DNA from: Candidatus Latescibacterota bacterium
GTDB lineage: Bacteria; Latescibacterota; UBA2968; SICM01
Direction: 5' to 3'
Assembly (NCBI GenBank): GCA_965217865.1
Contig: CBDCJO010000002.1
Coordinates: 64,001-128,000 of the forward strand
DNA length: 64,000 bases
This document shows positions 13,226 to 34,205 of the stretch, piece after piece. Made by a program: the position numbers and the translations under genes. The notes beneath the pieces are model-generated. The model was not told the origin of the DNA, did not search any database, and saw only the letters and a list, made by a program, of their open reading frames with translations. Numbering within the stretch: the stretch's first letter is position 1; each line of letters opens with the position of its first letter.

Positions 13226-13404
13226 TGGTTGACCCAGGCAGGTTCCTGTCGCAATGATGTTGAAGGGGCATCGACTCAACCCCCATATAGTAGCAAATGT
13301 GGTATGATAATTGCATGGCCCGGCCGAATCAATATATTGCTGAATGGGTCGATCTGCCTCGGGGGGTCGATGGTTTTATAAGCATTTAAGCTCATGATAC
13401 CATA

Positions 13405-14013: not shown

Positions 14014-14021
14014 ATTGGAAA

Positions 14022-15365: not shown

Positions 15366-15419
15366 TGATCCACGCAAACCCTCCTTCGGAGTTTCCCATC
15401 ATGAGCTGAAGGAGGGCGG

Positions 15420-15828: not shown

Positions 15829-15863
15829 TTAGGTCGATTGTCTCCATATGAGCGATCATTGGA

Positions 15864-16595: not shown

Positions 16596-16866
16596 TAGGT
16601 CAGCCTTGATCCGGTGATAATGACCTCGCTAAGCACAGGATTGGCTCAGGTTAAGTGCATTCTAGGATGGATTCCCGAATCTACCAGAGAAACCATGCCA
16701 ACTCAAAACCCTTCCATCACTTTCAATGTGGGTGGATCGCTAAACCCTGGCATACAAACCTATTAGGACTTCTAGGAAATTGAGTATATTTCTCAGATAT
16801 GGTGATTTCACCTCTCCGAAGTTCATCCTTTGTCACCCGTGAATCCTGGAGGGAGGGAGGCAAATC

Positions 16867-17589: not shown

Positions 17590-17910
17590 TTTTGTCAGAG
17601 TCGATCCCCTTTTGGGTTTACATCTGGAGCGTGTCTGCATTATCAAGATGCATCGAACCTCTTGCGATGTGGCCTGTCTGATTGTCAGCAGCGGGCAGTT
17701 TTGAAACCGTTTCCGTCAACGCCTGCGGCCCGGAGCTTGTGCAACAATGACATGAGGAGTTTTATCGAAAGTCGGTAAGCATATATGGGAGTATTATCAC
17801 AGCGTGATCGGAAACCATTGGGGGGGATGCATCCAAGTGTCTTCCGGAAAGCCTGCCAAGTGGCTCAGAAGAAACAAAGCCTTGACGCGGTTCGTGAAGG
17901 GTGAATTCGT

Positions 17911-18270
17911 ATGCGAAGCATTGAGATAAATCTTGGTAGTGCATCGAATGAAAGATGGGTCCCTGCCGTTCTTGAACAGATATGCGAATCTTTCGGTCTT
18001 CGTTCAACATTGAAAGGCACCCTCAAGAGTTATCCAGGATCCTTTCATTGGCATTTCAAGAAGGGAGATCGTCGGGGTACTCTGGAGGTAACATTCTGGC
18101 CTCGCATGAATCGTGCTTGGCTATCAGTTCAAGAAGGGCGGACAGGAAATTGGATTGACGAGGTGATAGTTCCTCTTAAGGATCGGATGGAGCAGCAACT
18201 TAGTCAGGGTAAGGAGGTTCATCGTAATTTTGGAAAGAGTTCAAGGCAAGATGGTCAAAGCCACAAGTAG
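17911..18270 (+). CDS. Hypothetical protein
   Basis: 119-aa ORF with protein-like composition (GSFHWHFKKG...GTLEVTFW); no family recognised. Confidence 0.55.
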   Translation: MRSIEINLGSASNERWVPAVLEQICESFGLRSTLKGTLKSYPGSFHWHFKKGDRRGTLEVTFWPRMNRAWLSVQEGRTGNWIDEVIVPLKDRMEQQLSQGKEVHRNFGKSSRQDGQSHK

Positions 18271-18581
18271 ACCACTATATCGCTCCCTGGCGGTAGCTTA
18301 GCCCTCCATTTGTGATCCCAAGGCAGCTTCGCCACAATTTGCAGCTTGGTTGCCCTCCAGGATCTCCTTTTACGAGAGGGGGCGAGATCGGATTCGCTGC
18401 ACGGAGAAACAGACTGCCTTCCTGGCAGTTGCCCGCTTCGCTACCTCTTGAACGAGAAACTTTCAGCTGGAGTCTTGGCATTTTCGCCTCTTTGGGCAAA
18501 CACTCCCCCAAAATCACCAATGAGCAAGGCCTTAGTGGAGAGCCAAGCCTGAGGGTATTATTAGAGGAGAACTCTACTGTC

Positions 18582-18986
18582 GTGGAAAAGTCTCTCTATC
18601 TTGGGATAGTTTTGACTAAGCAGACTATTAGGATTTGTGTAGTGGATGAGTGCGGAAACCAAATTGGTCATATGGCGATGAGTCGCAATTCGGGAAACGT
18701 TCCGGACCTTCAGAATTGGATTTCTGGAATTACTGCAAGGGGAACTAACCTTTACGCTGCCCTTGGCAATCCGGAGAAGGAAGTTGTGGACTTTCTACTT
18801 AGAAATAATATGGCTGTGGCGCCAATAGACATGACTAACCTGGATCAAGTTGTTACTCCTTGTAATATGGCGAGACCCAAGGCAACTCAGAGGGATGAGT
18901 GTAAGTTAGCTGAGTTCTTAAGGCTTCGGAATACAGAGAGTCTTGACTCGGATACGATAAGAAGATTGTTGGATGAGGAGATCTGA
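18582..18986 (+). CDS. Stand-alone degenerate IS110 DEDD/RuvC-like N-terminal domain
   Basis: GTG preceded by AGAGGAG. YLGIVLTKQTIRICVVDECG and KATQRDECKLAEFLR resemble the IS110 motifs GIDxxK..VVD and KTDxxDAxxLA. Confidence 0.5.
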   Translation: MEKSLYLGIVLTKQTIRICVVDECGNQIGHMAMSRNSGNVPDLQNWISGITARGTNLYAALGNPEKEVVDFLLRNNMAVAPIDMTNLDQVVTPCNMARPKATQRDECKLAEFLRLRNTESLDSDTIRRLLDEEI

Positions 18987-19505
18987 GGAAATCGTGACAA
19001 TGTGAAATGTTGAAATCAAGAGGACCTACGAGTAAGCCTCGATTTCTATTTCAGTATTATAGATTTAGGTCTTATTACATCGTGGTGTGCCTGTTATAAT
19101 TCTTCTTTGGTGTCACTTTATGGAGTAACAACAGGCTTTCGCATAATATATATAATGAGAAGAGGCAAAATGAGACAAGTCAACTAAATTTCATATTGAA
19201 TCAATTTGTGCTCTTTGTCTTGCCTTGCCTCTCATTTCTCGATATAGCGCTTGGAAGTAAGTCTTTTACTCTGACTCCAGAGATAGAGGGACCATTCTTT
19301 CACATCACAACTTTTATTTCTTACCTTTGCTTTACCGGTCCTTTCTTTGCCGCTGGTCTATTAGATGGCAGACGATAAAGACCATAAAATAGGAAGAGGA
19401 GCTCTTCCTGTCGTTTCGCATCATGAGCAGATAGGGAGGCGTATCTAGGGACTATGCGAAGTGAAATGCCGATATCAATGGGAAGACTCAATACTCAAAG
19501 GAAGC

Positions 19506-19736
19506 TTGTCGATCATGACTAAATTAATGAAGGAAATGTTAAGATATTTTTTAGATGATGAAATCAGATGTCCAAAATGTAACTCTCAAGATCATTCAAG
19601 AGTACACCTGCCCAATGATAGGGCCCCCTCAACGTCGTCATATGGAATGTACACTTTTGGTACAGGTTTTCTCATCAACCTACCTAATGTGTTTAGATAT
19701 AAGTGTAACAAATGTCAAAATACATGGAACGCTTAA
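19506..19736 (+). CDS. Small zinc-ribbon protein
   Basis: CPKC...YKCNKC pair; start uncertain (19461-19537). Confidence 0.45.
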   Translation: MSIMTKLMKEMLRYFLDDEIRCPKCNSQDHSRVHLPNDRAPSTSSYGMYTFGTGFLINLPNVFRYKCNKCQNTWNA

Positions 19737-20329
19737 GTACAAGCAAAATTATTTTTTCGGAAAGCCAATGTTGAAATATGTCCTTCGATTCTTTTGTTGC
19801 CCTATGAGTCATCTTGGCATAGTTCCTCAGCATCATCCTTTCATGCTCGCCCTCTATCATACCTTTCTCCTTTCACCGTATTGAGTGGGTTGTCATTGAG
19901 GTCTTCTTCCTTCGCCCGCTTCCTGGTCTTTGGTCTTGAGTGTAACCTCAAAGAACTCTGGCCAGCAGTTTCCGAGATAATAAATCTGGGCACCATTCTC
20001 ATTTGCGTTCTGAAGGAATTGAATGGCAAGATCTAGAGAAGAGCTTCTACCACAGCCTGGAAGTCCTCTGTGTATCTGACAAGGTATCTCGGCATTTTAG
20101 GTCTCCTAATTTCTCAATACCCATTAGGCTTATCGGGAGTTCTGCTTTCGGCAAACCCGTAGATGGTTTTCTCTCACGCATTTCCCGCACACAGGTCCTA
20201 ACAGGACTTCGGCAGGATCGTGATGAGCTAAGGCGTCAGAAAGCGGATAGACCAGGTATGGAACCACCTGGGATATCGTGAATTAGCTATCGCGGAGAGA
20301 ATGAACCACGTGAAATTAAAGGGATACAA

Positions 20330-21466
20330 TTGCCCGTGGAAAAATTGTTAAAAAATTCCGAGCTCGCAGATATTTCCGAAAAGGCCCTGAAAGGAGTTCG
20401 CCTTTCCAGAGAAGACGGCATACGCCTTTATGAGACCCAAGATCTTCCCGTCCTCGGAACCATGGCCAACCAGGTTCGGGAACGGATAAACGGCAACCTG
20501 GCCTACTACGTCCGAAATCAGCATATCAACTACACCAACATATGCAACAAATTTTCTAAATTTTGCTCTTTCTATGTAGCGCCGAAAGATGAACGGGGTT
20601 ATGTCCTCTACGCTGAGGATATCAAGGCTCGGGTCCTGGAGCATATCAAGATGCGGATCACGGAGATCCATATGGTGGCCGGCATAAACCCAAAGCTTCC
20701 GTACCAATATTACCTGGATATTCTAGATGCAGTCCGGGAGGCCAGACCGGACGTCCATATCAAGGCCTTTACCATGATCGAGCTGGCACAAATCCAGCGT
20801 GTAGCAAAGAAACCACTCCGCGACGTTCTCGTGGAGCTCAAAGCGCACGGCCTATCTTCCCTACCCGGTGGGGGCGCCGAAGTCTTTAGCGAACGTGTCC
20901 ACGAGGATCTTTTCTGGACCAAGGCCGACTCAGAGCAATGGCTGTCCATCGCGCGTATCGCACACGAGGTGGGGCTTCGCGCCAACGCAACGATGCTCTA
21001 CGGTCACGTCGAGAATACCGAAGAAAAAGTAGATCACCTGATTCGTCTCCGGGAACTTCAGGACGAAAAGGGGGGATTTCTCACTTATATCTCCCTCTCG
21101 TTTCACCCGGAAAGAACAGAACTGGAAACCATCCCAGGTCCGACGGGGTCTGACGATCTGAAGGAGATCGCGGTCGGCCGCTTGATGCTCGACAACTTTC
21201 CCCACATCAAGACCTTCTGGATCATGAACACGATCGAAGTCTCCCAGGCCGCCCTCTGGTATGGAGCGGATGACATCGACGGGACGATCATGGAGTACGA
21301 GATCACCCGGAAGACTGTTGAAGAGACAAAACAGATGCTCAGTTCCCAACAGCTTTTCGACCGGATCGTCGAGGCCGGCCGCGACCCGGTGGAACGCGAT
21401 AACCTCTACAACGTCGTCTCCGCCGAAAGGGAGGTTCCCCTCCCTGACGAGCTGCTCCAGGCTTAA
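20330..21466 (+). CDS. mqnE: Aminofutalosine synthase (radical SAM, CofH/MqnE family)
   Basis: HINYTNIC, HIKAFT, LPGGGAEVF, NATMLYGHVE, LDNFPHIK.FW; clustered with mqnC and mqnA. The cluster motif reads CxxxSxxC. Confidence 0.85.
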   Translation: MPVEKLLKNSELADISEKALKGVRLSREDGIRLYETQDLPVLGTMANQVRERINGNLAYYVRNQHINYTNICNKFSKFCSFYVAPKDERGYVLYAEDIKARVLEHIKMRITEIHMVAGINPKLPYQYYLDILDAVREARPDVHIKAFTMIELAQIQRVAKKPLRDVLVELKAHGLSSLPGGGAEVFSERVHEDLFWTKADSEQWLSIARIAHEVGLRANATMLYGHVENTEEKVDHLIRLRELQDEKGGFLTYISLSFHPERTELETIPGPTGSDDLKEIAVGRLMLDNFPHIKTFWIMNTIEVSQAALWYGADDIDGTIMEYEITRKTVEETKQMLSSQQLFDRIVEAGRDPVERDNLYNVVSAEREVPLPDELLQA

Positions 21467-21796
21467 CGGAGCCCTGAATCAAAATGAAAATCGGCCTCGC
21501 TGAATCTTCTGCGAAACCGATTATAAAATGAAACAAGATATTGGCGGCTTAAAGGATCTCAATAAGATTCTGGTCGAAGGTTAGCTTTTCGCCTACGAGC
21601 GGAGATCTTCCTATGAGGACCATACGTTCCTCGGGCGGGGAGGGGAACCCTCTTTGTCTCCCCTTCTTCCATTCCGATTACCCTATTTTCAAGGTATTTC
21701 CCCCTCGAATAGCACGGACATTCGTTCACCCTGGATGTAAGTTAAGCGATTGAAAACAAAATTTCAAGCCTTAAATCTGGATTAGGAGCACCCGCG

Positions 21797-22879
21797 ATGA
21801 TCTCAACCATCACTGAAAAAGTTTTTGGAGGGGAACGTCTTTCCATTCAGGACGGACTCGACCTCTTCCGACACCCAAATCTCGCAGAATTGGGCATATT
21901 GGCGAATCACGTCCGATGGAAGAAACACCCCGAAAGGGTCGTCACCTATGTCGTGGGGAGAAACATCAACTATACGAACCTCTGCTGGGTGCGATGTAAA
22001 TTTTGTGCGTTCTACCGCCCCCCAGGCTCCAACGAAGGTTACGTCCTCCCCCGAGAGGAAATCTTCGAAAAGATCCAGGAATTGGTGGATATTGGCGGAA
22101 CGAAACCGAAAACCTGTGAAGTCCTCATGCAGGGAGGCCTCAATCATAAGCTCAAACTCGACTACTACCTGGATCTTATCGGTTCGATTAAAAATAGATT
22201 CCCCTCGGTTCACATGCACTCCCTTTCCGCCACGGAAATCGTCTACATCGCTCATATCTCCCGTCTCTCTCTCGAAGCGTGCATCAAGGCCTTGAGAGAT
22301 GCCGGTCTGGATTCGATCCCCGGTGCAGGAGCGGAGATCCTCTCCGACGATGTTCGTCAGATCATCGGTTTCCGAAAGGATACCGTCTCCGAATGGCTCG
22401 ATGTCCATCGCATCGCTCACCGCCTGGGAATGCGGACCTCCGGGACGATGATGTACGGACACGTCGAGACCGATGAACAGCGGATGGAGCACCTGAACCT
22501 TATCCGGGATCTCCAGGATGAGACAGGGGGTTTTACGGCCTTTATCCCGTGGAGCTTCCAGCCTTCCGGTACCGAATTGGCCGGGGAATGGGAAGGAACG
22601 AAGGCCACTGGTTTCGATTACCTCCGCACTACGGCCATCGCACGTCTCTACCTGAACAACATCGATAACATTCAGGCATCCTGGGTTACTCAAGGCCCCA
22701 AGATTGCGCAGATCGGTCTTCATTATGGTGTAAACGATTTCGGAAGCACCATGATGGAGGAGAACGTGGTAAGTGCGGCCGGAACGAAATACTGTATGCC
22801 GATCCAGGAGATCGCTAGACTCATTCGGGATGTGGGCTGCGAACCCGTTCGGCGAAATACGGGGTACGGAATCGTATGA
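21797..22879 (+). CDS. mqnC: Cyclic dehypoxanthinyl futalosine synthase
   Basis: RNINYTNLCWVRCKFCAFYR, LMQGG, IQASWVTQG, NDFGSTMMEENVV. Confidence 0.92.
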   Translation: MISTITEKVFGGERLSIQDGLDLFRHPNLAELGILANHVRWKKHPERVVTYVVGRNINYTNLCWVRCKFCAFYRPPGSNEGYVLPREEIFEKIQELVDIGGTKPKTCEVLMQGGLNHKLKLDYYLDLIGSIKNRFPSVHMHSLSATEIVYIAHISRLSLEACIKALRDAGLDSIPGAGAEILSDDVRQIIGFRKDTVSEWLDVHRIAHRLGMRTSGTMMYGHVETDEQRMEHLNLIRDLQDETGGFTAFIPWSFQPSGTELAGEWEGTKATGFDYLRTTAIARLYLNNIDNIQASWVTQGPKIAQIGLHYGVNDFGSTMMEENVVSAAGTKYCMPIQEIARLIRDVGCEPVRRNTGYGIV

Positions 22880-23676
22880 GTATCCGACTCGGCGTCGTTA
22901 ACTACCTCAATACGAAACCGCTTGTCTACGCGCTGGAGCGGAACCTAGTCCCCCACCGCTTTGAACTCATCTACGATGTGCCCTCTGCCTGTGCCAGCCT
23001 GCTCGCCCGAAGAGAACTGGATCTAGCTATAATCCCGTCGATCGAATACGCCCGATCCGAAGTCTACCATATCGTCCCCGACGTGTCGATCGCCTGCGAC
23101 GGCCCTGTGAAAAGCGCTCTCCTTATCTCCCCGGTGAACATCGACAAGATCCGGTCCGTTGCCCTCGACACGAATTCCCGGAGTAGCACCGCACTTTCTC
23201 GCATCTTGATGCAGCGAATTCACGGATTTACCGGGGAATTCATCGACCATTCTCCGAACCTCGACGCTATGCTGAAAGTTGCCGATGCAGCGGTCCTGAT
23301 CGGTGACTGTGCTCTCGAAATCGAACAATCAAACGTCAGAATCTGGGACCTGGGTGAGATGTGGCGGCAAAATACCGGACTGCCTTTTGTCTTCGCCGTC
23401 TGGGCGGGTGTCCCAGGGGTTCTGTCCCCCGAAGATGTGTCTGCCCTGATAGAGGCAAAGCGGATCGGACTGGGCTTTGTGGACGAGATCTCAACAACCT
23501 TCGGGGAGGGACATCGAGGATCTGCCGCTTTCTATGAATCCTACCTCACAAAGCATATCCTCTACGAATTCGGTGAGAAGGAATCCGAAGGCCTCAGGAC
23601 CTTCTACCGGCACGCGGCATCCCTGGACATAATTCCGAACGAACCCGAAATTCGTTTTTACGACCGTTCCAAATAG
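22876..23676 (+). CDS. mqnA: Chorismate dehydratase (futalosine pathway)
   Basis: VNYLNTKPL, SRSSTAL, LIGD.AL, DLGEMW...TGLPFVFAVW; overlaps the mqnC stop. Confidence 0.9.
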   Translation: MSIRLGVVNYLNTKPLVYALERNLVPHRFELIYDVPSACASLLARRELDLAIIPSIEYARSEVYHIVPDVSIACDGPVKSALLISPVNIDKIRSVALDTNSRSSTALSRILMQRIHGFTGEFIDHSPNLDAMLKVADAAVLIGDCALEIEQSNVRIWDLGEMWRQNTGLPFVFAVWAGVPGVLSPEDVSALIEAKRIGLGFVDEISTTFGEGHRGSAAFYESYLTKHILYEFGEKESEGLRTFYRHAASLDIIPNEPEIRFYDRSK

Positions 23677-24089
23677 GAACTTGGCTTTGTCCACGAAGGT
23701 TGCCTAGCGGAGATTGAGGATTTTAATGTTGTCGATGCGGATCGGCGGCTAGAATCGGTATTGACAGAAATTCAAGCAAAGTTGATTGAGGCTTGTCCTG
23801 GAATTCTCGACGGAGTCCGATCGAGAAAGAAATTTCGTCGCATATTGGACAATGGTGGAATGCTGACTCAGCCCCCTTCCGAAAGTTGCGGTGGTAACGC
23901 CGAAAATACTTTATCTCTTCCCTTTCTAGGAACTCGTACCGAACAACACCTCAAATACGGAAGAAGGGCGACTGGGGCCGTGGAAGAAGTGGAGTACTGG
24001 ATGCTAAACACGGGATGGATGGTTATCACTTTGCTCCCCCTTGAGGGAGCGGGCCATCGGTCGGCGAACGGGCAGCATATGTTGGTACG

Positions 24090-24250
24090 GCTCTGGGGAT
24101 TCCCGAGGACATCCGTTGCCATCTTGAGCCTATCAAGAATGTGGCCAGGATTCGTTTGACCAAAGTCCTCATTGAGGGGATCAGCTCCCCATCAGTGGAT
24201 CAAATATACCACCCGAGGGTTCCGTAATTACGACGAATTAAACACAACGA
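24090..24250 (+). mobile_element. ISL3-family transposase C-terminal remnant
   Basis: Fragments RCHLEPIKNVAR, LIEGIS and QWIKYTTRGFRN match the ISL3 EGxNxxI..IK..ARGFRN tail. Confidence 0.6.
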
Positions 24251-24277
24251 CCTGATCCATGTCAGAGGCCTGAATCT

Positions 24278-27200
24278 TTGCTCACATTAAACCTGGAAGA
24301 ACCCAAGAAGATGAGCCCTGAAGTCGAGCTTTTACTCTGTTGCGCCCGGACATCCATGGACTCCGAGATAAATGAGCGGGTCAGAGCCTTGCTCCGGGAA
24401 TACATAGACTGGGAGTACCTGATCGAGATATCATCTCTTCATGGTATGAAGCCACTTTTATATTGGCATCTTAAGAATATTTCCACGGATTTTGTGCCAA
24501 AAACTATCGCAAAAGATCTTAAAGACCATTATCTCAATACTACTAAAATAAATGAGTTTCTGGCCTCAGAGTTGATAAAGGTTCTGAATTTATTTAAAGA
24601 CCACGAAATTCCAGCTCTCACATTCAAAGGACCCATTCTAGCTGCTTCGGTTTATGGCAACCTCTCACTTCGGCAATTTGGAGACATAGACGTCTTGATT
24701 CACAAGCGAAATGTTCCTAAAGCCAAAGACTTGCTCATCTCTGAGGGGTTTGAATCATATAAAAATATTCAACTTACTGGCGCAGAGGAAGCGTCTTTCC
24801 TTCAAGCCACGGAAGAATTGGACCTTCTAGGTAGGAAAAGCGACGATGATATCGAAGACATCCCGTGTTGGGTAGATCTGCATTGGGCAGTCAAAGGCGC
24901 GGCGGAATACTACCTCCCATTGGATGTCGATGATTTCTGGGGCAATCTCGAAGAAGTACCCCTAGCTGGTACTACAGCACAAGGCTTTTCTGCGGAGGAT
25001 ACACTTATAACCCTCTGCATACATGGGACCAAAACTCTATGGACCTTATTTTGGAAACCATTAAGTTTGATCTGCGACATTGCCGAACTGGTTCGCGTCC
25101 ATCCGGAGATAGATTTGGGACGAGTTATAGAGCATGCCGGAAGACTTGGTTGTGAACGAATAGTCGCCCTCGGTCTTTTCCTGGCAAACGATATCTTAGG
25201 AGCATCTCTACCAAAAGAAGTTTTGCAGAGGGTACAAGCCGACCCAGTAGTAAGATATTTCGCCACGCTAGTTAAGAGACATATGTTGTTCCAAACCCAC
25301 ACTGGGACTGCTTCTATGGAGGAGTGTACTGACATCAATCATATTGACCTCGACTTGATTCAGGAAATCAACCCTAGCGTCGATTTGTTTGTCATGCATG
25401 TCAATAACCTCATCGACGCGATAACGTTCGGTGTGACGGTACCATGGAAGGATAAACAGATCTATTCTAGTGACATCATAGACTGTGCTCAAGAACTAAA
25501 TAGGCACCGGGAATTCATCGGTAGGGATTGGTTGACAAGGCGAGTTCAGGAGTTTGTTGGCAGGTGTAATAGCGGTTTCCTGTTACTAACAGCTGAACCA
25601 GGGATTGGAAAAAGTGCCTTTGTTGCAAATCAAGTAAGCTCCAATAAGCAAAGAAGTGTCTTCCATTTCATCAGAAATGATATGGGGTATTGGGACGATC
25701 CTGATTCTATTCTCCGATCGCTAATTGGTCAACTGCGCCATAAATACAATCTACCAGAAATCGATAGCGAACAACGTATGACTCCTAAAGTTGCTTTTCT
25801 TGCCATGCTTCGGCTTGTTAGTAATGGATTAAATGGACAGAAGGAAGTTATCTATCTGGATGGATTAGATGAAGCTTTTGGATCAGGAGGGAGGTTTACT
25901 CAAATTACGCTGTCTGACTTTTTACCGCGTGATGATGGGCCAATTTTACCTAATGGTATTTTTATAGTACTCACTTCGCGTCCGGGCAACCACCTGAAAT
26001 GGTTGATGGACCTGAAGTTATGTGAGGTAGAAACTCTCGATCCTAATGCACAGGATAACAAGGATGATATCCATACCTATGTGTGTCATAAAAATCAGGT
26101 GGGGAACCTGGGGCTCACAGAAAGTTTCATTGAATACTTGGTAGACGCCTGCGAAGGAATTTTCGCTGTCGCTTTGATATATCTACGGATGCATCCAGAT
26201 TTAAGTAAGGAACTAACCAGGCAACGGGATCCATCTATTATTCCACGCGGTTTGGCAGATTGGTTTGTGAAACAGTGGACTCATGTGGTAACAGCAGCCC
26301 AACAACAGGGAATCGATCAAAATGTAGTGCGGGGCATTTTAGGATTGATGACGGTTGCCCGGGAACCCCTTGCCAAAGAGCACTTGATTGAGTTTCTGTC
26401 ACTGAAGAAGGGAACACCATCCGTTGGATTTCTAAATTTAGAGAAAATGGCACCTGACTTAGATAAGGTTCTAAATTTGTCACAAGAGTTCTTTGACTCT
26501 CCAAGCATGAAACAAGATGAAGTCAAATACTATCGGTTCTTCCACTCCAGTTTGTCTGAATTCATTACAGCAGATTTGTCAGAAGAAGAAAGGTCTGATT
26601 GCCATCGCCTTTTCGCAGAAAAGTGTGAAGCTTGGAATCAATTTCAAGGAGCTATTCGAAAATATGCTCTCCGCTATCGATTAAGTCATTTAATCGCCGC
26701 AGAAGAATGGGGCCAACTTGCTAAAGCATTTGCTGAGACCGATTTCATCGTGGAACGCAACAAGAAGTTTGGATTTGCTGAGATTTATTCGGACGCCAAT
26801 TTCATGATGCATGACTCGAGAATACCTCAAGACCTATACGAGGCATTCCGAGAGTGGGAACGTTTTCTTCGTAGGCGCATCGAGCAGTTTAGAGATTTCC
26901 CGGAGGCTTATCTTCAAGAGATAATCAATGAGTTTTTACCTTTAGCTTCCAAACCATTTGCCAGTGTTTTCAAGCTGGTAAAAGATACTTTCCTTCCTCC
27001 TTCCTCCTTCTGTCAGAAAATATTTGGCCCTCCTGCCATAAGAGGCACAGGCCACAGAGATCAGATCTCAAGTGTTGCCTTTTCTAACGATGAAAAATTT
27101 ATAGCTACCGGAAGCCGTGACAGTACAGTGAAAGTGTGGGAGATAGCAACCGGCCTGTTGATAGCGAATCTAATCAAAGATAATAAAGAACCGGTGCTAT

Positions 27201-28921
27201 GCATTGCCTTTTCTCTCGACGCCAAATTCATTGCAATGCAAAGTGCGGATGGCGCAGTGAAAGTGTGGGATGTGCAGACCGGAGTTCTTGTCTCAAGCTG
27301 TGTAGGGCTTTCCGGTTGGGATGTTAACATGGCATTTTCACCTGATGGAAGGTTCGTTGCAGCAGGAAATTCGGCTGGATTAGTTAAGATATGTGAGGCA
27401 CAGACTGGACGACTGATAGGAGAATGTGTTGGACACAAGGCCAATATATCTTGTACCGTCTTTTCTCATAGTGGAAAGTATGTTGCATCTGGAAGTTGTG
27501 ACAGTACTGTCAAAATTTGGGAGGTAGAAACTGGGAAACTGGTGGCAGATTGTATAGGACATAGGGACTGGGTGAATGCTGTTGTATTTTCGCCCGACGA
27601 AAAGTTAGTAGCGTCCGGAAGTAATGACAAAACAGTAAAAGTGTGGGAAGTTGAAACCGGACAGTTGATAGGAGACTGTGTTGGACATAATGATTCAGTA
27701 TTCAGTGTCACCTTTTCTCAAGATGGACAATTTATAGTATCGGGAAGTAAAGATAAAACTGTTAAGGTATGGGAAGCAAAAACTGGACGAGTGGTGGCAA
27801 ATTGTTTGGGGCATACAGACTGGGTACTATCCGTTGATTCTGCTAAAGATTTTGTTACATCCGGGAGTCGTGACAATACCATTAAGGTATGGGAAGCAAA
27901 AACTGGACATTTGGTAGCAGATTGTATAGGCCATAAAGACATGGTTTTCAGCGTTAACTTTTCCCAAGATGGACAATTCGTCGCATCCGGAAGCTGGGAT
28001 GACACAGTTAAGGTTTGGGAGGTAGAGAGTGGAAAGTTGGCAAAAGATTTGGCGGTAAGGCAAGGCGACGACAATGTAAGTTGTGTAGCCTTCTCACACG
28101 ATGCTAAGCTAGTGGCAACGGGGGACAAAGATGGGATGGTGAAAGTAGAGGAGACGAGGAACAGACAACGGTTATCAAACTGCATTGGTCATGAAGGAAC
28201 TGTAAACGATATTGTCTTTTCTCCTGACGGAAGATTTATAGGGTCAGGAGGTGATGATGGAACGGTGAAGGTTTGGGAGACCCATACAGGACAACTGATA
28301 ATAGATTGTGTTGGACATCCAGACTGGGTTTTCAGCGTTGATTTTTCCCATGATGGAAAGTATGTGGCATCTGGGAGTTGGGACAATACTGTTAAGATAT
28401 GGGAGACACAAACGGGAAAGAGGGTAGTAGATTGTATTGGACATGAGGGCAAAGTGACCAGCGTTGCCTTTTCTGCCGATGGACGATTTCTGGTATCGGG
28501 TAGTGATGACAGGAAGGTAAAAATATGTGATATAGTGACTGGGCGACTGGTATCCGACTTCGTAGGGCACAAGGATAGTGTAAACACGGTTGCTTTTTCT
28601 CCTGATGGAAAATTTATAGCTTCTGGAAGCCGGGACAATACTGTAAAGATATGGGAAGTGGCAACACAAAAAGTGGTGGCTGACTGCATAGAGCATAAGG
28701 ATCATGTAAATACAGTTGCTTTTTCAGCAGACGGAAGTTTTGTGGCGTCAGGAAGCAAAGATAGGAGTGTGAAAATATGGAAGGACTTGGAAGGCTTATG
28801 CATTAATACTCTGTTTTTCGACTATCCGTTGATCAAGGTTGGCTTTACTGCTATACCCACTCGTTCTTTACTAGTTGCTGATCTCAAAGGCCAGATTTTC
28901 GGTTATGAAATAACTATCTAA
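24278..28921 (+). CDS. Nucleotidyltransferase (NTP_transf_5-like) + NACHT/STAND ATPase + WD40-repeat protein
   Basis: N-term FKGPILA..Y....RQFGDIDVLI and VDLHW; central FIGRDWL, AEPGIGKS (Walker A), YLDGLDE (Walker B), LTSRP, FFHSSL.EF; C-terminal WD40 array. Confidence 0.88.
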   Translation: MLTLNLEEPKKMSPEVELLLCCARTSMDSEINERVRALLREYIDWEYLIEISSLHGMKPLLYWHLKNISTDFVPKTIAKDLKDHYLNTTKINEFLASELIKVLNLFKDHEIPALTFKGPILAASVYGNLSLRQFGDIDVLIHKRNVPKAKDLLISEGFESYKNIQLTGAEEASFLQATEELDLLGRKSDDDIEDIPCWVDLHWAVKGAAEYYLPLDVDDFWGNLEEVPLAGTTAQGFSAEDTLITLCIHGTKTLWTLFWKPLSLICDIAELVRVHPEIDLGRVIEHAGRLGCERIVALGLFLANDILGASLPKEVLQRVQADPVVRYFATLVKRHMLFQTHTGTASMEECTDINHIDLDLIQEINPSVDLFVMHVNNLIDAITFGVTVPWKDKQIYSSDIIDCAQELNRHREFIGRDWLTRRVQEFVGRCNSGFLLLTAEPGIGKSAFVANQVSSNKQRSVFHFIRNDMGYWDDPDSILRSLIGQLRHKYNLPEIDSEQRMTPKVAFLAMLRLVSNGLNGQKEVIYLDGLDEAFGSGGRFTQITLSDFLPRDDGPILPNGIFIVLTSRPGNHLKWLMDLKLCEVETLDPNAQDNKDDIHTYVCHKNQVGNLGLTESFIEYLVDACEGIFAVALIYLRMHPDLSKELTRQRDPSIIPRGLADWFVKQWTHVVTAAQQQGIDQNVVRGILGLMTVAREPLAKEHLIEFLSLKKGTPSVGFLNLEKMAPDLDKVLNLSQEFFDSPSMKQDEVKYYRFFHSSLSEFITADLSEEERSDCHRLFAEKCEAWNQFQGAIRKYALRYRLSHLIAAEEWGQLAKAFAETDFIVERNKKFGFAEIYSDANFMMHDSRIPQDLYEAFREWERFLRRRIEQFRDFPEAYLQEIINEFLPLASKPFASVFKLVKDTFLPPSSFCQKIFGPPAIRGTGHRDQISSVAFSNDEKFIATGSRDSTVKVWEIATGLLIANLIKDNKEPVLCIAFSLDAKFIAMQSADGAVKVWDVQTGVLVSSCVGLSGWDVNMAFSPDGRFVAAGNSAGLVKICEAQTGRLIGECVGHKANISCTVFSHSGKYVASGSCDSTVKIWEVETGKLVADCIGHRDWVNAVVFSPDEKLVASGSNDKTVKVWEVETGQLIGDCVGHNDSVFSVTFSQDGQFIVSGSKDKTVKVWEAKTGRVVANCLGHTDWVLSVDSAKDFVTSGSRDNTIKVWEAKTGHLVADCIGHKDMVFSVNFSQDGQFVASGSWDDTVKVWEVESGKLAKDLAVRQGDDNVSCVAFSHDAKLVATGDKDGMVKVEETRNRQRLSNCIGHEGTVNDIVFSPDGRFIGSGGDDGTVKVWETHTGQLIIDCVGHPDWVFSVDFSHDGKYVASGSWDNTVKIWETQTGKRVVDCIGHEGKVTSVAFSADGRFLVSGSDDRKVKICDIVTGRLVSDFVGHKDSVNTVAFSPDGKFIASGSRDNTVKIWEVATQKVVADCIEHKDHVNTVAFSADGSFVASGSKDRSVKIWKDLEGLCINTLFFDYPLIKVGFTAIPTRSLLVADLKGQIFGYEITI
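27050..28918 (+). repeat. WD40 tandem array: 14 units of about 126 bp plus one degenerate unit
   Basis: Consensus GHxDxVxSVxFSxDGxFVASGSxDxTVKVWExxTGxLVxDCI, counted in the translation. Confidence 0.9.
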
Positions 28922-29199
28922 AGCCAAAGATACGAAACACACAATTTAGTTTTAACATTGCTGTAAACAGCAACACTTCACTTTCCCCTCCCCCCCTTGC
29001 TCAAAATTCCCGTCACCAATCTTGGGCAACCATAAAATTTGCGAAGTTGCATATTCTTTTATTCTGCAATACTGACGTATGCGGGATATGTGGATTTTGT
29101 CTTGCTTTGAACTCTCTGCATCTATATATTCTGAAGATGGTTATCTAAAGTCCCCCTATCAAATTTCCTGTTACGTGAGGGTTCCCTTTGGTTGGAACA

Positions 29200-31572
29200 A
29201 TGGTAGAAATGGAATCACTGAATTTTGAAGGTACAGCTCAAAATGATATTCCAAAGGATGTCTTCGACAGCCTGAAAGACCTGATGCATCCTGAGGAGAA
29301 AGTGCAACTATCTGCGTCCACAGATCTCAGGTCCGACGGAACATATGGATCTGATTGGATACTTGCTACGGATCGACAACTGTATGCGTTCAGACCAAAT
29401 GGAGAAGAGCCACCTGGCATAATCCAAATTCCCCTCATGGAGATTGTGGAAGCGCAGGTCGAAGATTCACCTTGCAGCGGGGTTCTCAAAGTGCGAACGG
29501 TCCACAAAGGATTCACTCTAGCGCACTTTACGAGAACACTCCTCCCACGATTCTCAAATCTTTCAAAGCAGATATTAACCCTTGTTCAAGAGATTGGGTT
29601 TGAAGGAAATCAAGAAAGGAGAGGTGACTCCAAGCGTCCTACCACTCATGCTGAGGAAAAGAGATGCGAAAAATGTGGGTGGGTTATTGCTCATTTTACA
29701 AACATTTGCCACAATTGCCTTCCAAAGCGCAAGCACCTAACTCGAATCCTCAGCTATGTTTTCCCTTTTTGGGGGCTAACTCTTGTCAGTCTTATCCTTC
29801 TTCTAGTTGCCACCTTCATTGGCCTTACTCCTCCGCTGATCATGCGGACTCTTATTGATGACGTTCTTGCGCCTGCACGGCTAGACCTGTCATCCACTCG
29901 GTTAAAATCGCCTTCCGATAGAGAAAGTGGCCACGGTAGTATGCGTGGAAGGGATGAGGGAGTACCTATATCAAAAGGTAGTGGTGACACAGCGAAGTTA
30001 GCCAGATTGGTGATTCTTCTGCTCTTAGTAAATGTTTCACGGAATGGGCTGGGGGCTTTCAGAAGCTACCTTTTGGCCAAGCTCGGTCAGAGAATCACCT
30101 TCAATCTAAGATGTCAGGTTTATCGGCACATCCACAACCTATCCCTGAGTTTTTACAATAGAGGCACTGGATGGATCATCCACCACATCACGAATGATGT
30201 CGGTAAGATTCAAGATTTCATCACCCAGAAACTTCAAGACAGCATCGTTAATATACTAACCCTTCTTATTATCTGTTGCATTCTTTTCTATCTAAACCCT
30301 GGATTGGCCGCCCTCGTACTGCTTCCGACTCCGTTCTATGTAATTGCCACCGTGTTTTTCGGTCGACGGATAGGAGACAAGACAAAGGTTCTTGCACGCC
30401 GATGGGCTGGACTAAGTGGACTTCTTGGGGATGTTATTTCGGGAATTAGGGTAGTGAGATCATTTGCTCAAGAAAAGCGGGAGGTGAATAAGTTTGAGAG
30501 GAAAAACTGGGATCTCTATAAGGGCGAACTTGGGATGGCGCGAATACAGAGCGGATTTGCACCCCTCATGACCTTCCTCACATCTCTGGGGACTCTCATC
30601 ATTTGGTGGATTGGTGGCCACAAGGTCATAGGAGGAACCCTCACGCTAGGTGACTTTGTAGCCTTCACCAGTTATATGTGGCAGTTCTATGGTCCAGTGG
30701 AATCTCTCTGCAACATCAATCACGGATTTCGGAAGGCAGCAGGTTACTCTTCGCGTGTTTTTGACATCCTAGACACCCCACTTGACAATGGGGATAAGAG
30801 GAATGCTTCTCGAATTAAGCGAGTAGAAGGACGAGTGGAATTCAGGAATGTAACCTTTGCTTACGAACCTGGAAAACCGGTTCTCAAGAACATAAATTTT
30901 GTGGTAGAGCCAGGCGAAATGATTGGCTTGGCGGGACATAGCGGTGCAGGCAAGACGACCTTGATCAACCTCATCTGTAGATTCTACATAGCCCAGGAAG
31001 GGGCAGTATTGATCGATGGATGTGACGTCAGAAACATCCAGTTGAAGTCCTACAGAGAGCAAATCGGGGTAGTTCTTCAGGACACTTTTCTTTTTAACAG
31101 CACTGTAGCTGAGAATATTTCATACGGCAATCCTGAAAGCTCTTTTGATGAAATTATGGCTGCAGCAAAAGCAGCAAGCGCTCATGACTTCATAATGAAT
31201 CTTCCTGATGGATATGAGACATTACTTGGTGAGAGAGGCGCTCGTCTCTCAGGTGGAGAGCGCCAGCGTCTCTCTATTGCTCGAGCTGTTCTCAGAAATC
31301 CGCGCATTCTTTTTCTCGACGAAGCCACATCCAATCTGGATACTGAGACAGAGGCTCGAATCCAGGATGCGTTGGCTAATCTCATCAAGGGACGTACGAC
31401 CTTTGCGATCGCCCATCGACTTTCTACACTTAAACATGCGAACCGACTATTGATTCTCAACCAAGGGGAACTAGGTGAAATAGGGACTCATGATGAATTG
31501 ATTGCCAAAGACGGGATCTACGCCAAGCTCTGTCGAATGCAGAGTGAGATGTCAAGGATTCACGCTTGGTAA
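29200..31572 (+). CDS. ABC exporter (fused TMD + NBD) with N-terminal extension and CxxC...CxxC motif
   Basis: GHSGAGKT, LSGGERQ, LDEAT, IAHRLST; transmembrane segments; CEKC...CHNC. Start could be 29188, 29200 or 29209. Confidence 0.9.
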   Translation: MVEMESLNFEGTAQNDIPKDVFDSLKDLMHPEEKVQLSASTDLRSDGTYGSDWILATDRQLYAFRPNGEEPPGIIQIPLMEIVEAQVEDSPCSGVLKVRTVHKGFTLAHFTRTLLPRFSNLSKQILTLVQEIGFEGNQERRGDSKRPTTHAEEKRCEKCGWVIAHFTNICHNCLPKRKHLTRILSYVFPFWGLTLVSLILLLVATFIGLTPPLIMRTLIDDVLAPARLDLSSTRLKSPSDRESGHGSMRGRDEGVPISKGSGDTAKLARLVILLLLVNVSRNGLGAFRSYLLAKLGQRITFNLRCQVYRHIHNLSLSFYNRGTGWIIHHITNDVGKIQDFITQKLQDSIVNILTLLIICCILFYLNPGLAALVLLPTPFYVIATVFFGRRIGDKTKVLARRWAGLSGLLGDVISGIRVVRSFAQEKREVNKFERKNWDLYKGELGMARIQSGFAPLMTFLTSLGTLIIWWIGGHKVIGGTLTLGDFVAFTSYMWQFYGPVESLCNINHGFRKAAGYSSRVFDILDTPLDNGDKRNASRIKRVEGRVEFRNVTFAYEPGKPVLKNINFVVEPGEMIGLAGHSGAGKTTLINLICRFYIAQEGAVLIDGCDVRNIQLKSYREQIGVVLQDTFLFNSTVAENISYGNPESSFDEIMAAAKAASAHDFIMNLPDGYETLLGERGARLSGGERQRLSIARAVLRNPRILFLDEATSNLDTETEARIQDALANLIKGRTTFAIAHRLSTLKHANRLLILNQGELGEIGTHDELIAKDGIYAKLCRMQSEMSRIHAW

Positions 31573-31589
31573 AATGCAAGGAGAGGAAA

Positions 31590-32114
31590 ATGCAAACACG
31601 GCAAGAAGATATATGTGACCTGGAGGGGGAATTACATTTTTTCGATCCAGAGCAAGTCCGGTTTTCCCTCAACGAGTTTGATGATCTCACAGTTGAACTT
31701 GAGAAAGGAGTTACACACAGCCCTCTCATACTCCGACGTGCTTTTCCATTAACTATGGGGGATCAGTATATTGCTGTAAAGAAAGTCGAGGGTGATGAGT
31801 TAGGAATCATAAGAAAAGTCTCAGATCTTGATCCGGATAGTCAACATGTTCTATACGCCCAGTTGAACATGGTATATTTCGCTCCAAGAATTATCCGAAT
31901 AAATTCCATCAAATCACGTCTGGCAATCAATATTTGGGACGTAGAGACAGACAAGGGACGAACTGTGTTTGAGGCCGAGAACACACATAATGACATAAGA
32001 ATTTTGAAAAGTGGTCGGATCATAATCTATGATGCAGATAGAAACCGATACGAGATTCCAGACTATAGAAAGCTTGATGATGTTAGCCGGGCTCTGGTTG
32101 AGGCTCAAATCTGA
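31590..32114 (+). CDS. DUF1854-family protein
   Basis: RRAFPLT...ELGII....L....YF.P.I..I...WDVETDKG...F...D...NRYEIPD; RBS AGGAGAGG; directly follows its usual ABC partner. Confidence 0.8.
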   Translation: MQTRQEDICDLEGELHFFDPEQVRFSLNEFDDLTVELEKGVTHSPLILRRAFPLTMGDQYIAVKKVEGDELGIIRKVSDLDPDSQHVLYAQLNMVYFAPRIIRINSIKSRLAINIWDVETDKGRTVFEAENTHNDIRILKSGRIIIYDADRNRYEIPDYRKLDDVSRALVEAQI

Positions 32115-32243
32115 TAACTCGGCTGATGACGAACTGTAGGGATAAGTGCCCAGCCTATCTCAGTATATTGATGAGAAGGCGGTGAATATGAATCGCTACT
32201 ATTTAAAGAAGGTGAAGGGTAACCTTGGCCTTGTAGATGGGCG

Positions 32244-33356
32244 ATGCTTAAAAGAAGAAGATCCAGACGCAAGCGCCGAATCTTAAATTGGATCCTTGGG
32301 ATCCTGTCTGGTGTCTTTTTTGTTTTGACGCTTCTCTGGTTTATCCCGATTAATGATGTGGTAATGGCAACCGGTGTGGTGGAGCCTGGAGGAAAGGTCT
32401 TCATTGACTCTCCCTTAAGGGGCATTGTCAAGAAAGTATATGCTCATGAAGGCTCACAAGTAAAAGAGGGGCAGATTGTTGCTCAACTTAATGACAAAGG
32501 CTTGAAATCCGAGGTGGTCATAGCGAAGGATGACTTCAATCATGCAAGTGCAAACTTGGACATGGCACGGGCCAAGCTTGACCAACTGAAGGAACAGCCT
32601 TTTCCAGAAGATGTTCGCATGGCGGAAGTCCGCCTCAGGGCCGCACAAATTTACCTTGAAGCCGAACGCAAAAAGTTAGCCCGTGCTGACAGCTTGTGGG
32701 TTCGAAATTTCATTACATTGTCTGATATGGAAACAGCAAGGACACATTATGAACTGGCAAGGTCCGATTTTGACATTACTGTCGAAAATCTAAAATCAAC
32801 ACAACAAGGCCCATCGAGTTCCCAAATTCGAGGAGCTCAGGCCGAGGTTAAAGCTGCCGAGGCCTTTTTAGTTAAAGCCCAACATAACCTTGAAGTTGCT
32901 CAGGAAATGCTCGCAAGCGCCACACTTCGGTCCCCAGAATACGGTGTTGTAATACGCGTCGATCTCCTTCCTGGAATGCTAGCAGATCAAGGAGATGTTG
33001 TCATGGTTATCGCTTCTGGCAATGAATCCTTTCTCAAAGGATGGGTCAAAGAGATTAATATTTGGAAGGTCAAAAAGGGACAACCCGTTGAGATTCTTAG
33101 CAATGTATTCTCAAACCGGGAGGCTTTTCTCTCAACAGGTGAAGTCGTTCAGGTATATCCCTATGGGGTAAGTGGAGGAGGGGAACGTGCCTTTGAGATT
33201 TTGATCAAGATTGAAGATGCAGTTATTCCTCCCCCTCTTGGGTCCACTGGCGATGCTAGGGTCATTGTAGGGAAGCGAGGTATCCTAAAGATATGGCTAG
33301 GTATTGAAAACGATATAGAAAAATTTGTTACGCAGGATGGATCGAATCTCCAATAA
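32244..33356 (+). CDS. HlyD-family membrane fusion protein
   Basis: N-terminal TM helix, SPLRGIVKKVYAHEGSQVKEGQ lipoyl half-motif, coiled coil, LRSPEYGVV. Confidence 0.85.
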   Translation: MLKRRRSRRKRRILNWILGILSGVFFVLTLLWFIPINDVVMATGVVEPGGKVFIDSPLRGIVKKVYAHEGSQVKEGQIVAQLNDKGLKSEVVIAKDDFNHASANLDMARAKLDQLKEQPFPEDVRMAEVRLRAAQIYLEAERKKLARADSLWVRNFITLSDMETARTHYELARSDFDITVENLKSTQQGPSSSQIRGAQAEVKAAEAFLVKAQHNLEVAQEMLASATLRSPEYGVVIRVDLLPGMLADQGDVVMVIASGNESFLKGWVKEINIWKVKKGQPVEILSNVFSNREAFLSTGEVVQVYPYGVSGGGERAFEILIKIEDAVIPPPLGSTGDARVIVGKRGILKIWLGIENDIEKFVTQDGSNLQ

Positions 33357-33407
33357 TGAATCACTTTTGAAAGATAACCTCTCTATATAGATTAAGGCAT
33401 AGCCATC

Positions 33408-34205
33408 ATGGTATTAAACAATAAGATACATCGGACAGAGGTTGAAATAACTCTTATTATTTGTTCGAACGATCCCCAGGAAATTGCATGCGGGATCGGA
33501 GAAATAACCCAGATCGCAAACTTCAAGTTATTCCCGCAACATCCCAGGAAGATCCATGATATTTACCTCGACACAGATTGCGGGGCGTTACAAAAACAAA
33601 AACTGAGTTTTAGACTTAGAGAAATAGATGAAACTTTTGCTCTTACTCTAAAAGATCGTCCCCAACTAAATTATTGGGGAGGCAAGGAACGGCTCGAAAT
33701 TGAAGGTTTTTGGTCTATAAATACAATGTTAGAGATTATCAAAGAACTAGAAGTTAGGGGCGTAAAAGTTAATCCGCCATATCAGGATTTAATTAAGGTT
33801 TACCCATTAGAAACTTTGCACAGTTTAGGGCTAAAGATTATACAAGATCGGGAGAATTATAGAAAAGTTAGAAATGTTATATCCCTTGGTGAAGATAATG
33901 GAAAAGTACTCGCGGAATTGACAGTCGATTCTGTGGTTTATCATTTCAACAATCAAGATGTCTGCCATTACGAAGTTGAAATCGAAGAAAAATCCAAAGA
34001 GAGCTCAAAAGTTCTTAAGAGTATATCTGAAAGTTTGATTGAAATTTATGGGCCTGTGCTTCGCAAATGGACTCCAGGTAAGTATGTCACTGGTAAAGCA
34101 ATTGAGAAACTACTTAGAAATAGAAGTTTGGAAGGGTTGCTTAATAAAAATAAACTGTACCCATCAGCCTATAATAAGTTAGACGAATTCTTAAAATACG
34201 ATTGA
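33408..34205 (+). CDS. CYTH domain protein
   Basis: EVEIT, DIYLDT, FRLRE, LTLK, ERLEIE, LTVDSV, YEVEIE, GKY motifs. Confidence 0.8.
   Translation: MVLNNKIHRTEVEITLIICSNDPQEIACGIGEITQIANFKLFPQHPRKIHDIYLDTDCGALQKQKLSFRLREIDETFALTLKDRPQLNYWGGKERLEIEGFWSINTMLEIIKELEVRGVKVNPPYQDLIKVYPLETLHSLGLKIIQDRENYRKVRNVISLGEDNGKVLAELTVDSVVYHFNNQDVCHYEVEIEEKSKESSKVLKSISESLIEIYGPVLRKWTPGKYVTGKAIEKLLRNRSLEGLLNKNKLYPSAYNKLDEFLKYD

What the first reader, a model, noticed from the sequence alone, without database searches (positions are those of the whole stretch)
24278..28921. NLR-like protein with a nucleotidyltransferase effector (NTase-NACHT-WD40)
Seen: one uninterrupted 1547-aa ORF with an N-terminal NTase retaining KG...R..GDxD and DLH motifs, a central STAND/NACHT module (AEPGIGKS, LDGLDE, TSRP, FFH) and about 14 WD40 repeats. 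Known: effector-NACHT-sensor is the layout of bacterial NACHT/Avs anti-phage proteins and of fungal HET-E-type NLRs. Their usual effectors are nucleases, TIR, SIR2, PNP or proteases. NTP_transf_5-type NTases are normally stand-alone, often near lasso-peptide or surface-polysaccharide loci. Inference: this may be an undescribed sensor in which ligand binding by the WD40 propellers triggers oligomerisation and nucleotidyl transfer, acting as a toxin or making a signal. The defence-island setting supports this.
Basis: partly seen in the sequence, partly recalled or inferred. Interest (0 to 1): 0.85.

Follow-up and report, generated by a model that had tools for sequence, protein, structure and literature searches.

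The report
Apaf-1-like sensor with nucleotidyltransferase head
This bacterial gene fuses a nucleotide-transferring enzyme, from a family otherwise seen beside peptide- and sugar-tailoring genes, to a predicted Apaf-1-like immune-receptor scaffold, and it likely works as an untested invader sensor that chemically tags a cellular target when triggered.

Summary
The ORF is real: 1547 aa, with NTP_transf_5 (43-308), a NACHT-type STAND module with intact motifs, and 14-15 WD40 blades. Single contigs from three samples in two studies span the gene without differences. One independent protein (P0010, about 40% identical in every domain) has the same fusion and is sister in the STAND tree. In 28 close STAND relatives the N-terminal slot holds a Lon-like peptidase, trypsin, TIR or this NTase, so the NTase sits in a swappable effector position. 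The NTase model folds like MenT1, ANT(2'') and LnuA, not cGAS/OAS. Its stand-alone relatives (42-45% identical) lie in lasso-peptide and glycan loci. Best reading: a bacterial NLR whose ligand-triggered oligomerisation likely unleashes transfer onto a protein or phospho-acceptor (inferred, about 0.45). Against: only two full-length examples; relatives are truncated or have lost motifs; immediate neighbours are not defence genes. [quoted passage not shown] New variant of a known kind; interest 0.55.

The parts
24278..28921 (+). Whole ORF, 1547 aa: NTase - STAND (NACHT-type) - double WD40 propeller
   Evidence: spanned by single contigs in three runs
24311..24547 (+). N-terminal helical subdomain of the NTP_transf_5 protein (res 12-90), shared with stand-alone relatives
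   Evidence: AF2 model, helices at high pLDDT; alignment A3
24548..25291 (+). Pol-beta-superfamily nucleotidyltransferase core (res 91-338) with K117-G118, R132, D136-x-D138, D200-L-H202; lacks the last ~65 profile positions of stand-alone relatives
   Evidence: Pfam PF14907; conservation and truncation; fold match MenT1 Z 13.2, ANT(2'') Z 11.4, LnuA Z 11.1
25292..25489 (+). Poorly conserved linker (res 339-404; 12% identity to P0010)
25490..26047 (+). STAND nucleotide-binding domain (res 405-590): Walker A at 25592-25615, Walker B at 25853-25873, sensor-1 TSR
26048..26989 (+). Predicted HD1, winged-helix (H756) and HD2 helical domains (res 591-904)
   Evidence: AF2 model; whole-length match to Apaf-1 3sfz, TM 0.52 over 1226 columns; motif table
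27008..28918 (+). WD40 sensor (res 911-1547): 14 clear 42-aa repeats, about 15 blades, mean repeat identity 44%
12001..34000 (.). Context (approximate bounds): low-GC block (0.43-0.48 against 0.55 for the genome) carrying the gene, interrupted by a second copy of mqnE/C/A

Best explanation
This is a real fusion of an NTP_transf_5 nucleotidyltransferase to a STAND-WD40 scaffold predicted to fold like Apaf-1, and it likely works as a bacterial NLR: a ligand, probably an invader protein, would bind the two WD40 propellers, would trigger ADP/ATP exchange and oligomerisation, and would release the N-terminal enzyme, which likely transfers a nucleotide-activated group onto a protein or phosphorylated acceptor and arrests the cell. 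Shown: the ORF, domains, intact motifs, one independent fusion, effector swapping in the family, fold matches. Inferred from STAND biology: autoinhibition, ligand sensing, oligomerisation. Inferred from the family's neighbours and from PsmN: the acceptor class. Untested: catalysis, toxicity, phage defence.
For: (1) P0010 (1532 aa, unnamed ENA contig) has the same three parts: 38-42% identity in the NTase, 32-46% in STAND subdomains, 43% over a collinear WD40 region. It is sister to P0001/P0003/P0004 in the STAND tree, 99/99. Both keep KG, R, DxD, DLH and Walker A/B despite ~60% divergence. (2) Of 28 close STAND relatives, the N-terminus is Lon_C-like in 13 (by motif; Pfam Lon_C only just under its cut-off in the 3 that hit it), trypsin-like in 2, TIR in 1, NTase in 2, unassigned in 4, missing or short in 6. 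TIR and trypsin are listed NACHT effector types (passages of 10.1101/2022.07.19.500537). (3) The STAND-WD40 model aligns along its whole length to Apaf-1 (E 3e-49, TM 0.52). (4) Six predicted ligand-facing WD40 positions mostly differ strongly between repeats yet are conserved among P0001/3/4 (10 of 65 differ, against 31 of 78 at other variable positions, Fisher p 0.0015; p 0.025 with the seventh HET-E position added; 13 of 14 repeats used); five of the six differ from P0010 in 6-11 of 13 repeats each, mostly 9-11. This fits a selected, paralog-specific ligand. (5) The gene looks acquired: GC 0.437, lower than all but 1 of 1285 5-kb windows; no STAND match in 167 other genomes of the phylum; 5 of 13 HsdM matches of the genome lie in the 175 kb around it. 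(6) Stand-alone relatives sit beside HPr-type kinase, S9 peptidase, lasso B2/PqqD and glycosyltransferase genes. The DxD-dependent lasso enzyme PsmN is needed to add hexose to a phosphorylated peptide (PMC6993621 passages); that PsmN is PF14907 is my inference, not checked.
Against: Only 2 full-length fusions were found. The nearest relatives, P0003 and P0004 (76-85% identical), start inside the STAND domain, and P0036 (80% to P0010's NTase) ends at the linker; their DNA could not be fetched, so split genes, assembly errors and decay cannot be told apart. P0010 has lost the sensor-1 Arg and P0004 the winged-helix His. The NTase tree does not resolve whether the two fused NTases are one clade (SH-aLRT 90, open, AU p 0.48). 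Both fused NTases lack the last ~65 profile positions that the four unfused relatives checked retain, which could impair activity. Immediate neighbours are metabolic or transport genes, and PADLOC gives no convincing model (Avs1b E 0.017). The best fold match is a tRNA-modifying toxin (MenT1), which points to another acceptor.
Confidence: 0.45

Rival explanations
1. Same NLR switch, but the effector is a MenT/AbiEii-like toxin that extends tRNA 3' ends and stops translation.
For: MenT1 is the top structural match in both searches (Foldseek E 4.8e-4; Z 13.2, rmsd 3.2 over 184 residues); MenT3/MenT4 also appear (Z 8.8, 8.3). MenT toxins modify tRNA (PMC10435456 passages).
Against: Identity to MenT1 is 11-13%; ANT(2''), TM1012 and LnuA follow at Z 11.1-11.4. 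Pfam gives only NTP_transf_5 at E<=0.05. The domain is 42-45% identical to enzymes of biosynthetic loci, so a switch to tRNA is the less parsimonious reading.
Confidence: 0.15
2. Not defence: a ligand-gated tailoring or regulatory enzyme, where the STAND-WD40 part controls a PsmN-like modification linked to the downstream ABC/DUF1854/HlyD exporter.
For: Stand-alone family members are biosynthetic by context; the downstream genes are a co-oriented exporter set of the same low GC.
Against: No lasso B2 match in the genome, and both PqqD matches lie elsewhere. Sister STAND proteins carry TIR and peptidases. Whether the exporter accompanies P0010 could not be checked.
Confidence: 0.15
3. The NTase is a passenger: a rare fusion tolerated in a small lineage, inactive or being lost, while the STAND-WD40 part does or did the work.
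For: Two full-length cases only; P0003, P0004 and P0036 are partial; C-terminal truncation of the NTase; motif losses in P0010 and P0004.
Against: Catalytic motifs are kept in both fusions at ~40% identity while the adjacent linker has decayed to 12%; the NTase model is confident (pLDDT 91.5).
Confidence: 0.18
4. The NTase makes a diffusible (cyclic) nucleotide signal, like CD-NTases.
For: Pol-beta superfamily; Kibby et al. place their NACHT-fused pol-beta NTase among signal-generating or degrading enzymes. CYTH-like genes lie in the same block.
Against: OAS1 Z 5.7 and cGLR1 Z 5.4 against 11-13 for the transferases; no signal-sensing effector was recognised among the flanking ORFs scanned.
Confidence: 0.06
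5. Assembly chimera of two neighbouring genes.
For: None beyond rarity.
Against: Spanned by single contigs in three runs of two studies; independent fusion P0010; even GC across domains, 0.42-0.45.
Confidence: 0.01

Closest known systems
Bacterial NACHT / NLR-related proteins (bNACHT; Kibby et al., 10.1101/2022.07.19.500537, passages seen)
   Same: N-terminal enzymatic effector, central STAND module, C-terminal beta-propeller sensor; effector varies between relatives. [quoted passage not shown]
   Different: The paper does not name the NTase family in the text seen and treats it as a signal enzyme; its tables were not visible. Here the effector is PF14907, recruited from biosynthetic loci. Pfam NACHT is not hit by this protein; NPHP3_N is.
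Apaf-1 (PDB 3sfz)
   Same: Predicted NBD-HD1-WHD-HD2 plus two propellers of about 15 blades; whole-length alignment, TM 0.52.
   Different: 19% identity; NACHT-type motifs (LDGLDE, GxF in place of GxP); an enzyme in place of the CARD.
Fungal HET-E / NWD NLRs (PMC12222747, passages seen)
   Same: Effector-NACHT-WD40 layout; NPHP3_N-type NTPase; repeat-specific variable residues on the propeller face.
   Different: No high internal conservation (repeats 44% mean, 67% maximum, against over 80%); ligand-facing sites are conserved among close homologs rather than diversifying.
MenT1/MenT3/AbiEii nucleotidyltransferase toxins (DUF1814)
   Same: Closest solved fold (Z 13.2); DxD metal-binding motif.
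   Different: 11-13% identity, different Pfam family, extra N-terminal helical subdomain, no antitoxin gene recognised; control would come from the fused STAND.
Stand-alone NTP_transf_5 (PF14907) proteins; lasso-cluster PsmN (PMC6993621, passages seen)
   Same: 42-45% identity to stand-alone members; all invariant residues kept.
   Different: Fused to STAND-WD40, lacks the C-terminal ~65 positions, no lasso or glycan genes beside it.
Avs/AVAST systems
   Same: STAND NTPase with N-terminal effector and repeat sensor (recalled).
   Different: Only a trace PADLOC match (Avs1b E 0.017); WD40 sensor rather than TPR.

Membership tests
STAND NTPase / NLR-like protein | P-loop NBD with Walker A, Walker B and sensor-1 | tested here: met
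   AEPGIGKS 439-446, YLDGLDE 526-532, TSR 566-568; NPHP3_N over cut-off
STAND NTPase / NLR-like protein | HD1, winged-helix with conserved His, HD2 after the NBD | tested here: met
   AF2 model pLDDT 87 and whole-length Apaf-1 alignment; H756
STAND NTPase / NLR-like protein | Tripartite layout with variable N-terminal effector and repeat sensor | tested here: met
   TIR, trypsin, Lon_C-like and NTase N-termini in relatives
STAND NTPase / NLR-like protein | Ligand-induced nucleotide exchange and oligomerisation | not testable with these tools
   needs biochemistry
NACHT clade (PF05729; bNACHT) | Match to the NACHT profile above cut-off | tested here: inconclusive
   P0001 does not hit PF05729 at E<=0.05; relatives hit it mostly below cut-off, one above (P0086); Atlas neighbours include NACHT/NPHP3_N-WD40 clusters at 0.86-0.90
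NACHT clade (PF05729; bNACHT) | Anti-phage activity | not testable with these tools
   needs phage challenge
NTP_transf_5 (PF14907) | Profile match above the gathering score | tested here: met
   177 bits against 31.2, profile positions 3-249 of 249
NTP_transf_5 (PF14907) | Invariant KG, Y, R, DxD and LHW residues | tested here: met
NTP_transf_5 (PF14907) | C-terminal ~65-residue extension of the ~400-aa stand-alone subfamily | tested here: not met
   profile coverage ends at 335 (P0001) and 327 (P0010) of 402, against 393-400 in the four unfused relatives checked
MenT/AbiEii (DUF1814) toxins | Sequence match to the family | tested here: not met
   only NTP_transf_5 at E<=0.05 in Pfam; no MenT chain found by sequence or profile in PDB
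MenT/AbiEii (DUF1814) toxins | Shared fold | tested here: met
   Z 13.2, rmsd 3.2 over 184 residues
MenT/AbiEii (DUF1814) toxins | tRNA 3' modification | not testable with these tools
   needs tRNA-seq
CD-NTase / cGAS-like signal synthases | cGAS/OAS-type fold as the closest match | tested here: not met
   OAS1 Z 5.7 and cGLR1 Z 5.4, far below the transferases at 11-13
Fungal HNWD (HET-E) NLRs | WD40 repeats with over 80% internal identity | tested here: not met
   mean 44%, maximum 67% protein identity; 60-75% at DNA level
Avs/AVAST | PADLOC Avs model match | tested here: not met
   best E 0.015-0.017 over about 50 residues

The most novel reading that the evidence does not exclude
A bacterial apoptosome-like receptor has recruited a PsmN-type peptide-tailoring transferase as its weapon: on sensing a specific invader protein it oligomerises and caps phosphorylated or hydroxyl sites on proteins with a nucleotide or sugar, a chemistry I did not find described for any NLR effector. 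It would also give the uncharacterised PF14907 family a switchable, testable activity.
Probability: 0.3. Interest if true: 0.8.

Novelty: new variant of a known kind. Interest (0 to 1): 0.55.

Why it matters
Characterised bacterial NLR effectors mostly destroy things: DNA, RNA, NAD+, ATP, proteins. An effector that adds a group would widen that chemistry. PF14907 is widespread and nearly uncharacterised (one paper names the accession among the library's full texts; no PDB relative by profile). A STAND fusion offers a built-in switch: Kibby et al. report synthetic activation of bacterial NACHT proteins by a His substitution, and H756 is a candidate equivalent, so the substrate could be found without knowing the phage. 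The rarity of the fusion limits its general importance.

Tried and rejected
Word-index search with the NTase region found only the protein itself, and the A1 profile search also missed P0010, so those searches undercount fusions. The exhaustive profile search (best 150 of 26,450 hits) showed no further NTase+STAND protein, but it holds one representative per 50% cluster and did not list P0001 or P0010 themselves. GTDB contig scans gave no fusion; the JGI scan gave 22 loci, 1 NTase-only and 21 STAND-only; viral scans were empty; plasmids gave 15 records, none covering both domains. Alignment A2 was too diverse for pattern scans. No RNA holder listed. Low-share runs X7-X10 gave only short pieces. 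A two-copy prediction of the NTase domain gave no answer. No Rfam or tRNA hit in the window; promoter and terminator counts were at chance level. No NCBIfam model for residues 12-925. The host's taxon name was not obtained. Earlier findings of the scan: nothing shown. Literature searches that found no description of a PF14907-STAND fusion; PMC9815663 has no 'nucleotidyl' or 'transferase' term. Supplementary tables of the Kibby preprint and the journal version could not be seen and may list this architecture. Distant STAND loci (about 25% identity) beside hsdM, PglZ, TIR or methylase genes were judged too far to count as context evidence.

Full report
Observation. The + strand carries one open frame at 24278-28921, 1547 aa from a TTG, with an alternative ATG at 24311. 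Pfam places NTP_transf_5 (PF14907) at residues 43-308 (E 6.5e-52) and 13 WD40 stretches in the C-terminal 630 residues. The middle hits NPHP3_N above its cut-off and AAA_16 below it, but not Pfam NACHT at E<=0.05. Single contigs of 3 of 4 runs laid, from two studies, span the whole gene with no differences inside it, and a contig of the fourth spans the NTase-STAND junction. The join is not an assembly artefact, although these are contigs and one run may be the source sample.

Is the fusion repeated? A search with the STAND region returned 23 proteins of 850-2708 aa. One, P0010 (1532 aa, unnamed ENA contig), has the same three parts: 38-42% identity in the NTase, 46% in the NBD, 32-40% in the helical domains, 43% over a collinear WD40 region, and 12% in the linker. 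In a 35-row STAND tree P0010 is sister to P0001, P0003 and P0004 with 99/99 support (P0010 is flagged for unusual composition). The NTase tree is unresolved: SH-aLRT 90 for one clade in a 53-row quick tree, open in a 33-row careful tree, AU p 0.48; these trees used 53 and 33 of the roughly 130 NTase relatives retrieved. One fusion event is plausible but not shown. No third full-length fusion was found, though two of these searches also missed P0010. P0003 and P0004 (76-85% identical) begin inside the STAND domain and P0036 (80% to P0010's NTase) stops at the linker; without their DNA I cannot say whether they are split, mis-assembled or decaying. P0010 has lost the sensor-1 Arg and P0004 the winged-helix His.

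The scaffold. Among 28 close STAND relatives the N-terminal slot is Lon_C-like in 13 (by motif; the Pfam match is just under cut-off in the 3 that hit it), trypsin-like in 2, TIR in 1, NTase in 2, unassigned in 4 and missing or short in 6. The NTase thus occupies a swappable effector position. The AF2 model of residues 405-1547 (mean pLDDT 87) shows an NBD, helical domains and about 60 strands, and aligns along its whole length to Apaf-1 (3sfz, E 3e-49, TM 0.52). The WD40 repeats are not of the highly conserved HET-E type (mean 44%; over 80% in HET-E, PMC12222747 passages). I mapped the HET-E variable positions listed in that paper onto these repeats (the register is my own, recalled). Five of six such positions vary strongly between repeats (2.3-3.0 bits) but differ among P0001/P0003/P0004 in only 10 of 65 cells, against 31 of 78 at other variable positions (p 0.0015; p 0.025 when the seventh position is added; one repeat with a deletion left out; repeats are not independent). 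The same five differ from P0010 in 6-11 of 13 repeats. This fits a fixed, selected ligand that differs between the two fusion lineages.

The enzyme. The NTase model (117-row alignment, pLDDT 91.5) matches MenT1 best (Z 13.2, rmsd 3.2, 184 residues), then ANT(2'') and TM1012 (11.4), a fungal NTase-like protein (11.2), LnuA (11.1), MenT3, FKRP and MenT4 (8.3-8.8); OAS1 and cGLR1 score 5.4-5.7 (Foldseek agrees). It is therefore a group-transferring Pol-beta enzyme rather than a cGAS-type synthase. By sequence it is 42-45% identical to ~400-aa stand-alone PF14907 proteins. In the four loci examined these lie beside an HPr-type kinase and S9 peptidase, polysaccharide export and Wzz genes, glycosyltransferases, a flippase, lasso B2 and PqqD. 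PsmN, an 'uncharacterized NTP transferase' of a lasso cluster modelled on ANT(2''), needs D134/D136 to put hexose on a phosphorylated peptide (PMC6993621 passages; review PMC9266682 passages); I infer but did not check that it is PF14907. Both fused NTases, and P0036, end about 65 profile positions earlier than the four unfused relatives checked.

Context. Upstream lie mqnE, mqnC and mqnA, a second copy 92-93% identical to a cluster elsewhere in the genome; downstream an ABC exporter, DUF1854, HlyD, CYTH and transposases. PADLOC finds no convincing model for the gene or its immediate neighbours. The gene is in a low-GC block (0.437, lower than all but 1 of 1285 5-kb windows). At DNA level only the mqn genes of that block have long matches in 20 relatives, and no STAND match was found in 167 other genomes of the phylum, where at most five candidates per genome were scored. 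Type I RM genes lie 16 kb upstream and 30 kb downstream, and 5 of 13 HsdM matches of the 6.4-Mb genome fall in the surrounding 175 kb, some being copies of one cassette. So this is an acquired gene in an RM- and IS-rich region, not a gene inside a compact defence island.

Mechanism. Most likely (0.45) it is a bacterial NLR: the propellers hold the STAND module closed, ligand binding drives nucleotide exchange and oligomerisation, and the released NTase transfers a nucleotide-activated group onto a protein or phosphorylated acceptor, arresting the cell. Architecture, motifs, recurrence, effector swapping and folds are shown; the switch is inferred from STAND biology; the acceptor is inferred from family context; activity, toxicity and defence are untested. 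Rivals: passenger or decaying NTase (0.18), MenT-like tRNA toxin (0.15), non-defence gated tailoring enzyme (0.15), signal synthase (0.06), artefact (0.01).

Comparison with what is known. The layout is that of bacterial NACHT proteins. [quoted passage not shown] A 2026 preprint (10.64898/2026.10.19.760177, passages) describes an inactive Pol-beta NTase on ParA, sometimes fused to an ORC/STAND-like NTPase, and Pol-beta toxins in ParA systems: a different arrangement. PMC8195603 (passages) lists STAND effectors without an NTase in the passages shown. Seven searches found no description of a PF14907-STAND-WD40 fusion, but most subscription papers are not held.

Verdict. A genuine, rare NLR-like protein with an effector family that I could not find described in this role: a new variant of a known kind. 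Interest 0.55; 0.8 if the protein-tagging effector is shown.

Noticed in passing
window 20210-23690: The mqnE-mqnC-mqnA cluster here is a second copy, 92-93% identical to G000:C2:5358007-5361897, sitting inside a low-GC block.
   Followed up: partly
P0005, P0006, P0008, P0011, P0039, P0041-P0045, P0049, P0086, P0087; L041:7556-9607: The commonest N-terminus of this STAND subfamily is a Lon protease C-terminal-like domain (13 of 28); in L041 the gene follows a sigma-factor-like ORF. Not searched in the literature.
   Followed up: partly
window 15864-17589 and 33408-34205: Two CYTH-domain ORFs (one weak) and one unassigned ORF of similar size lie in the same low-GC block.
   Followed up: no
window 61993-63642: A type I RM specificity subunit with an N-terminal minimal nucleotidyltransferase (Polbeta/NTP_transf_2) domain.
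   Followed up: no
window 42158-45893: A helicase/RNase H-like gene duplicated at 99.4% at G000:C2:1390973-1394706.
   Followed up: no
G000:C2:64000-237000: 5 of 13 HsdM_N matches of the genome lie in this 175 kb; one 658-codon frame recurs with near-equal score at three places.
   Followed up: partly
L014:6758-8416 (G000:C2:3026997-3027845): The genome's other NTP_transf_5 is fused to a Peptidase_S24-like domain, next to PqqD and a radical SAM ORF.
   Followed up: partly
P0030, P0038, P0080, P0095, P0100, P0170, P0175, P0176: NTP_transf_5 also fuses to methyltransferase or PqqD domains, and occurs in tandem in P0038.
   Followed up: no
window 36180-37793 and 15437-15834: High-copy IS elements and remnants with dozens of near-identical copies in the genome.
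   Followed up: no
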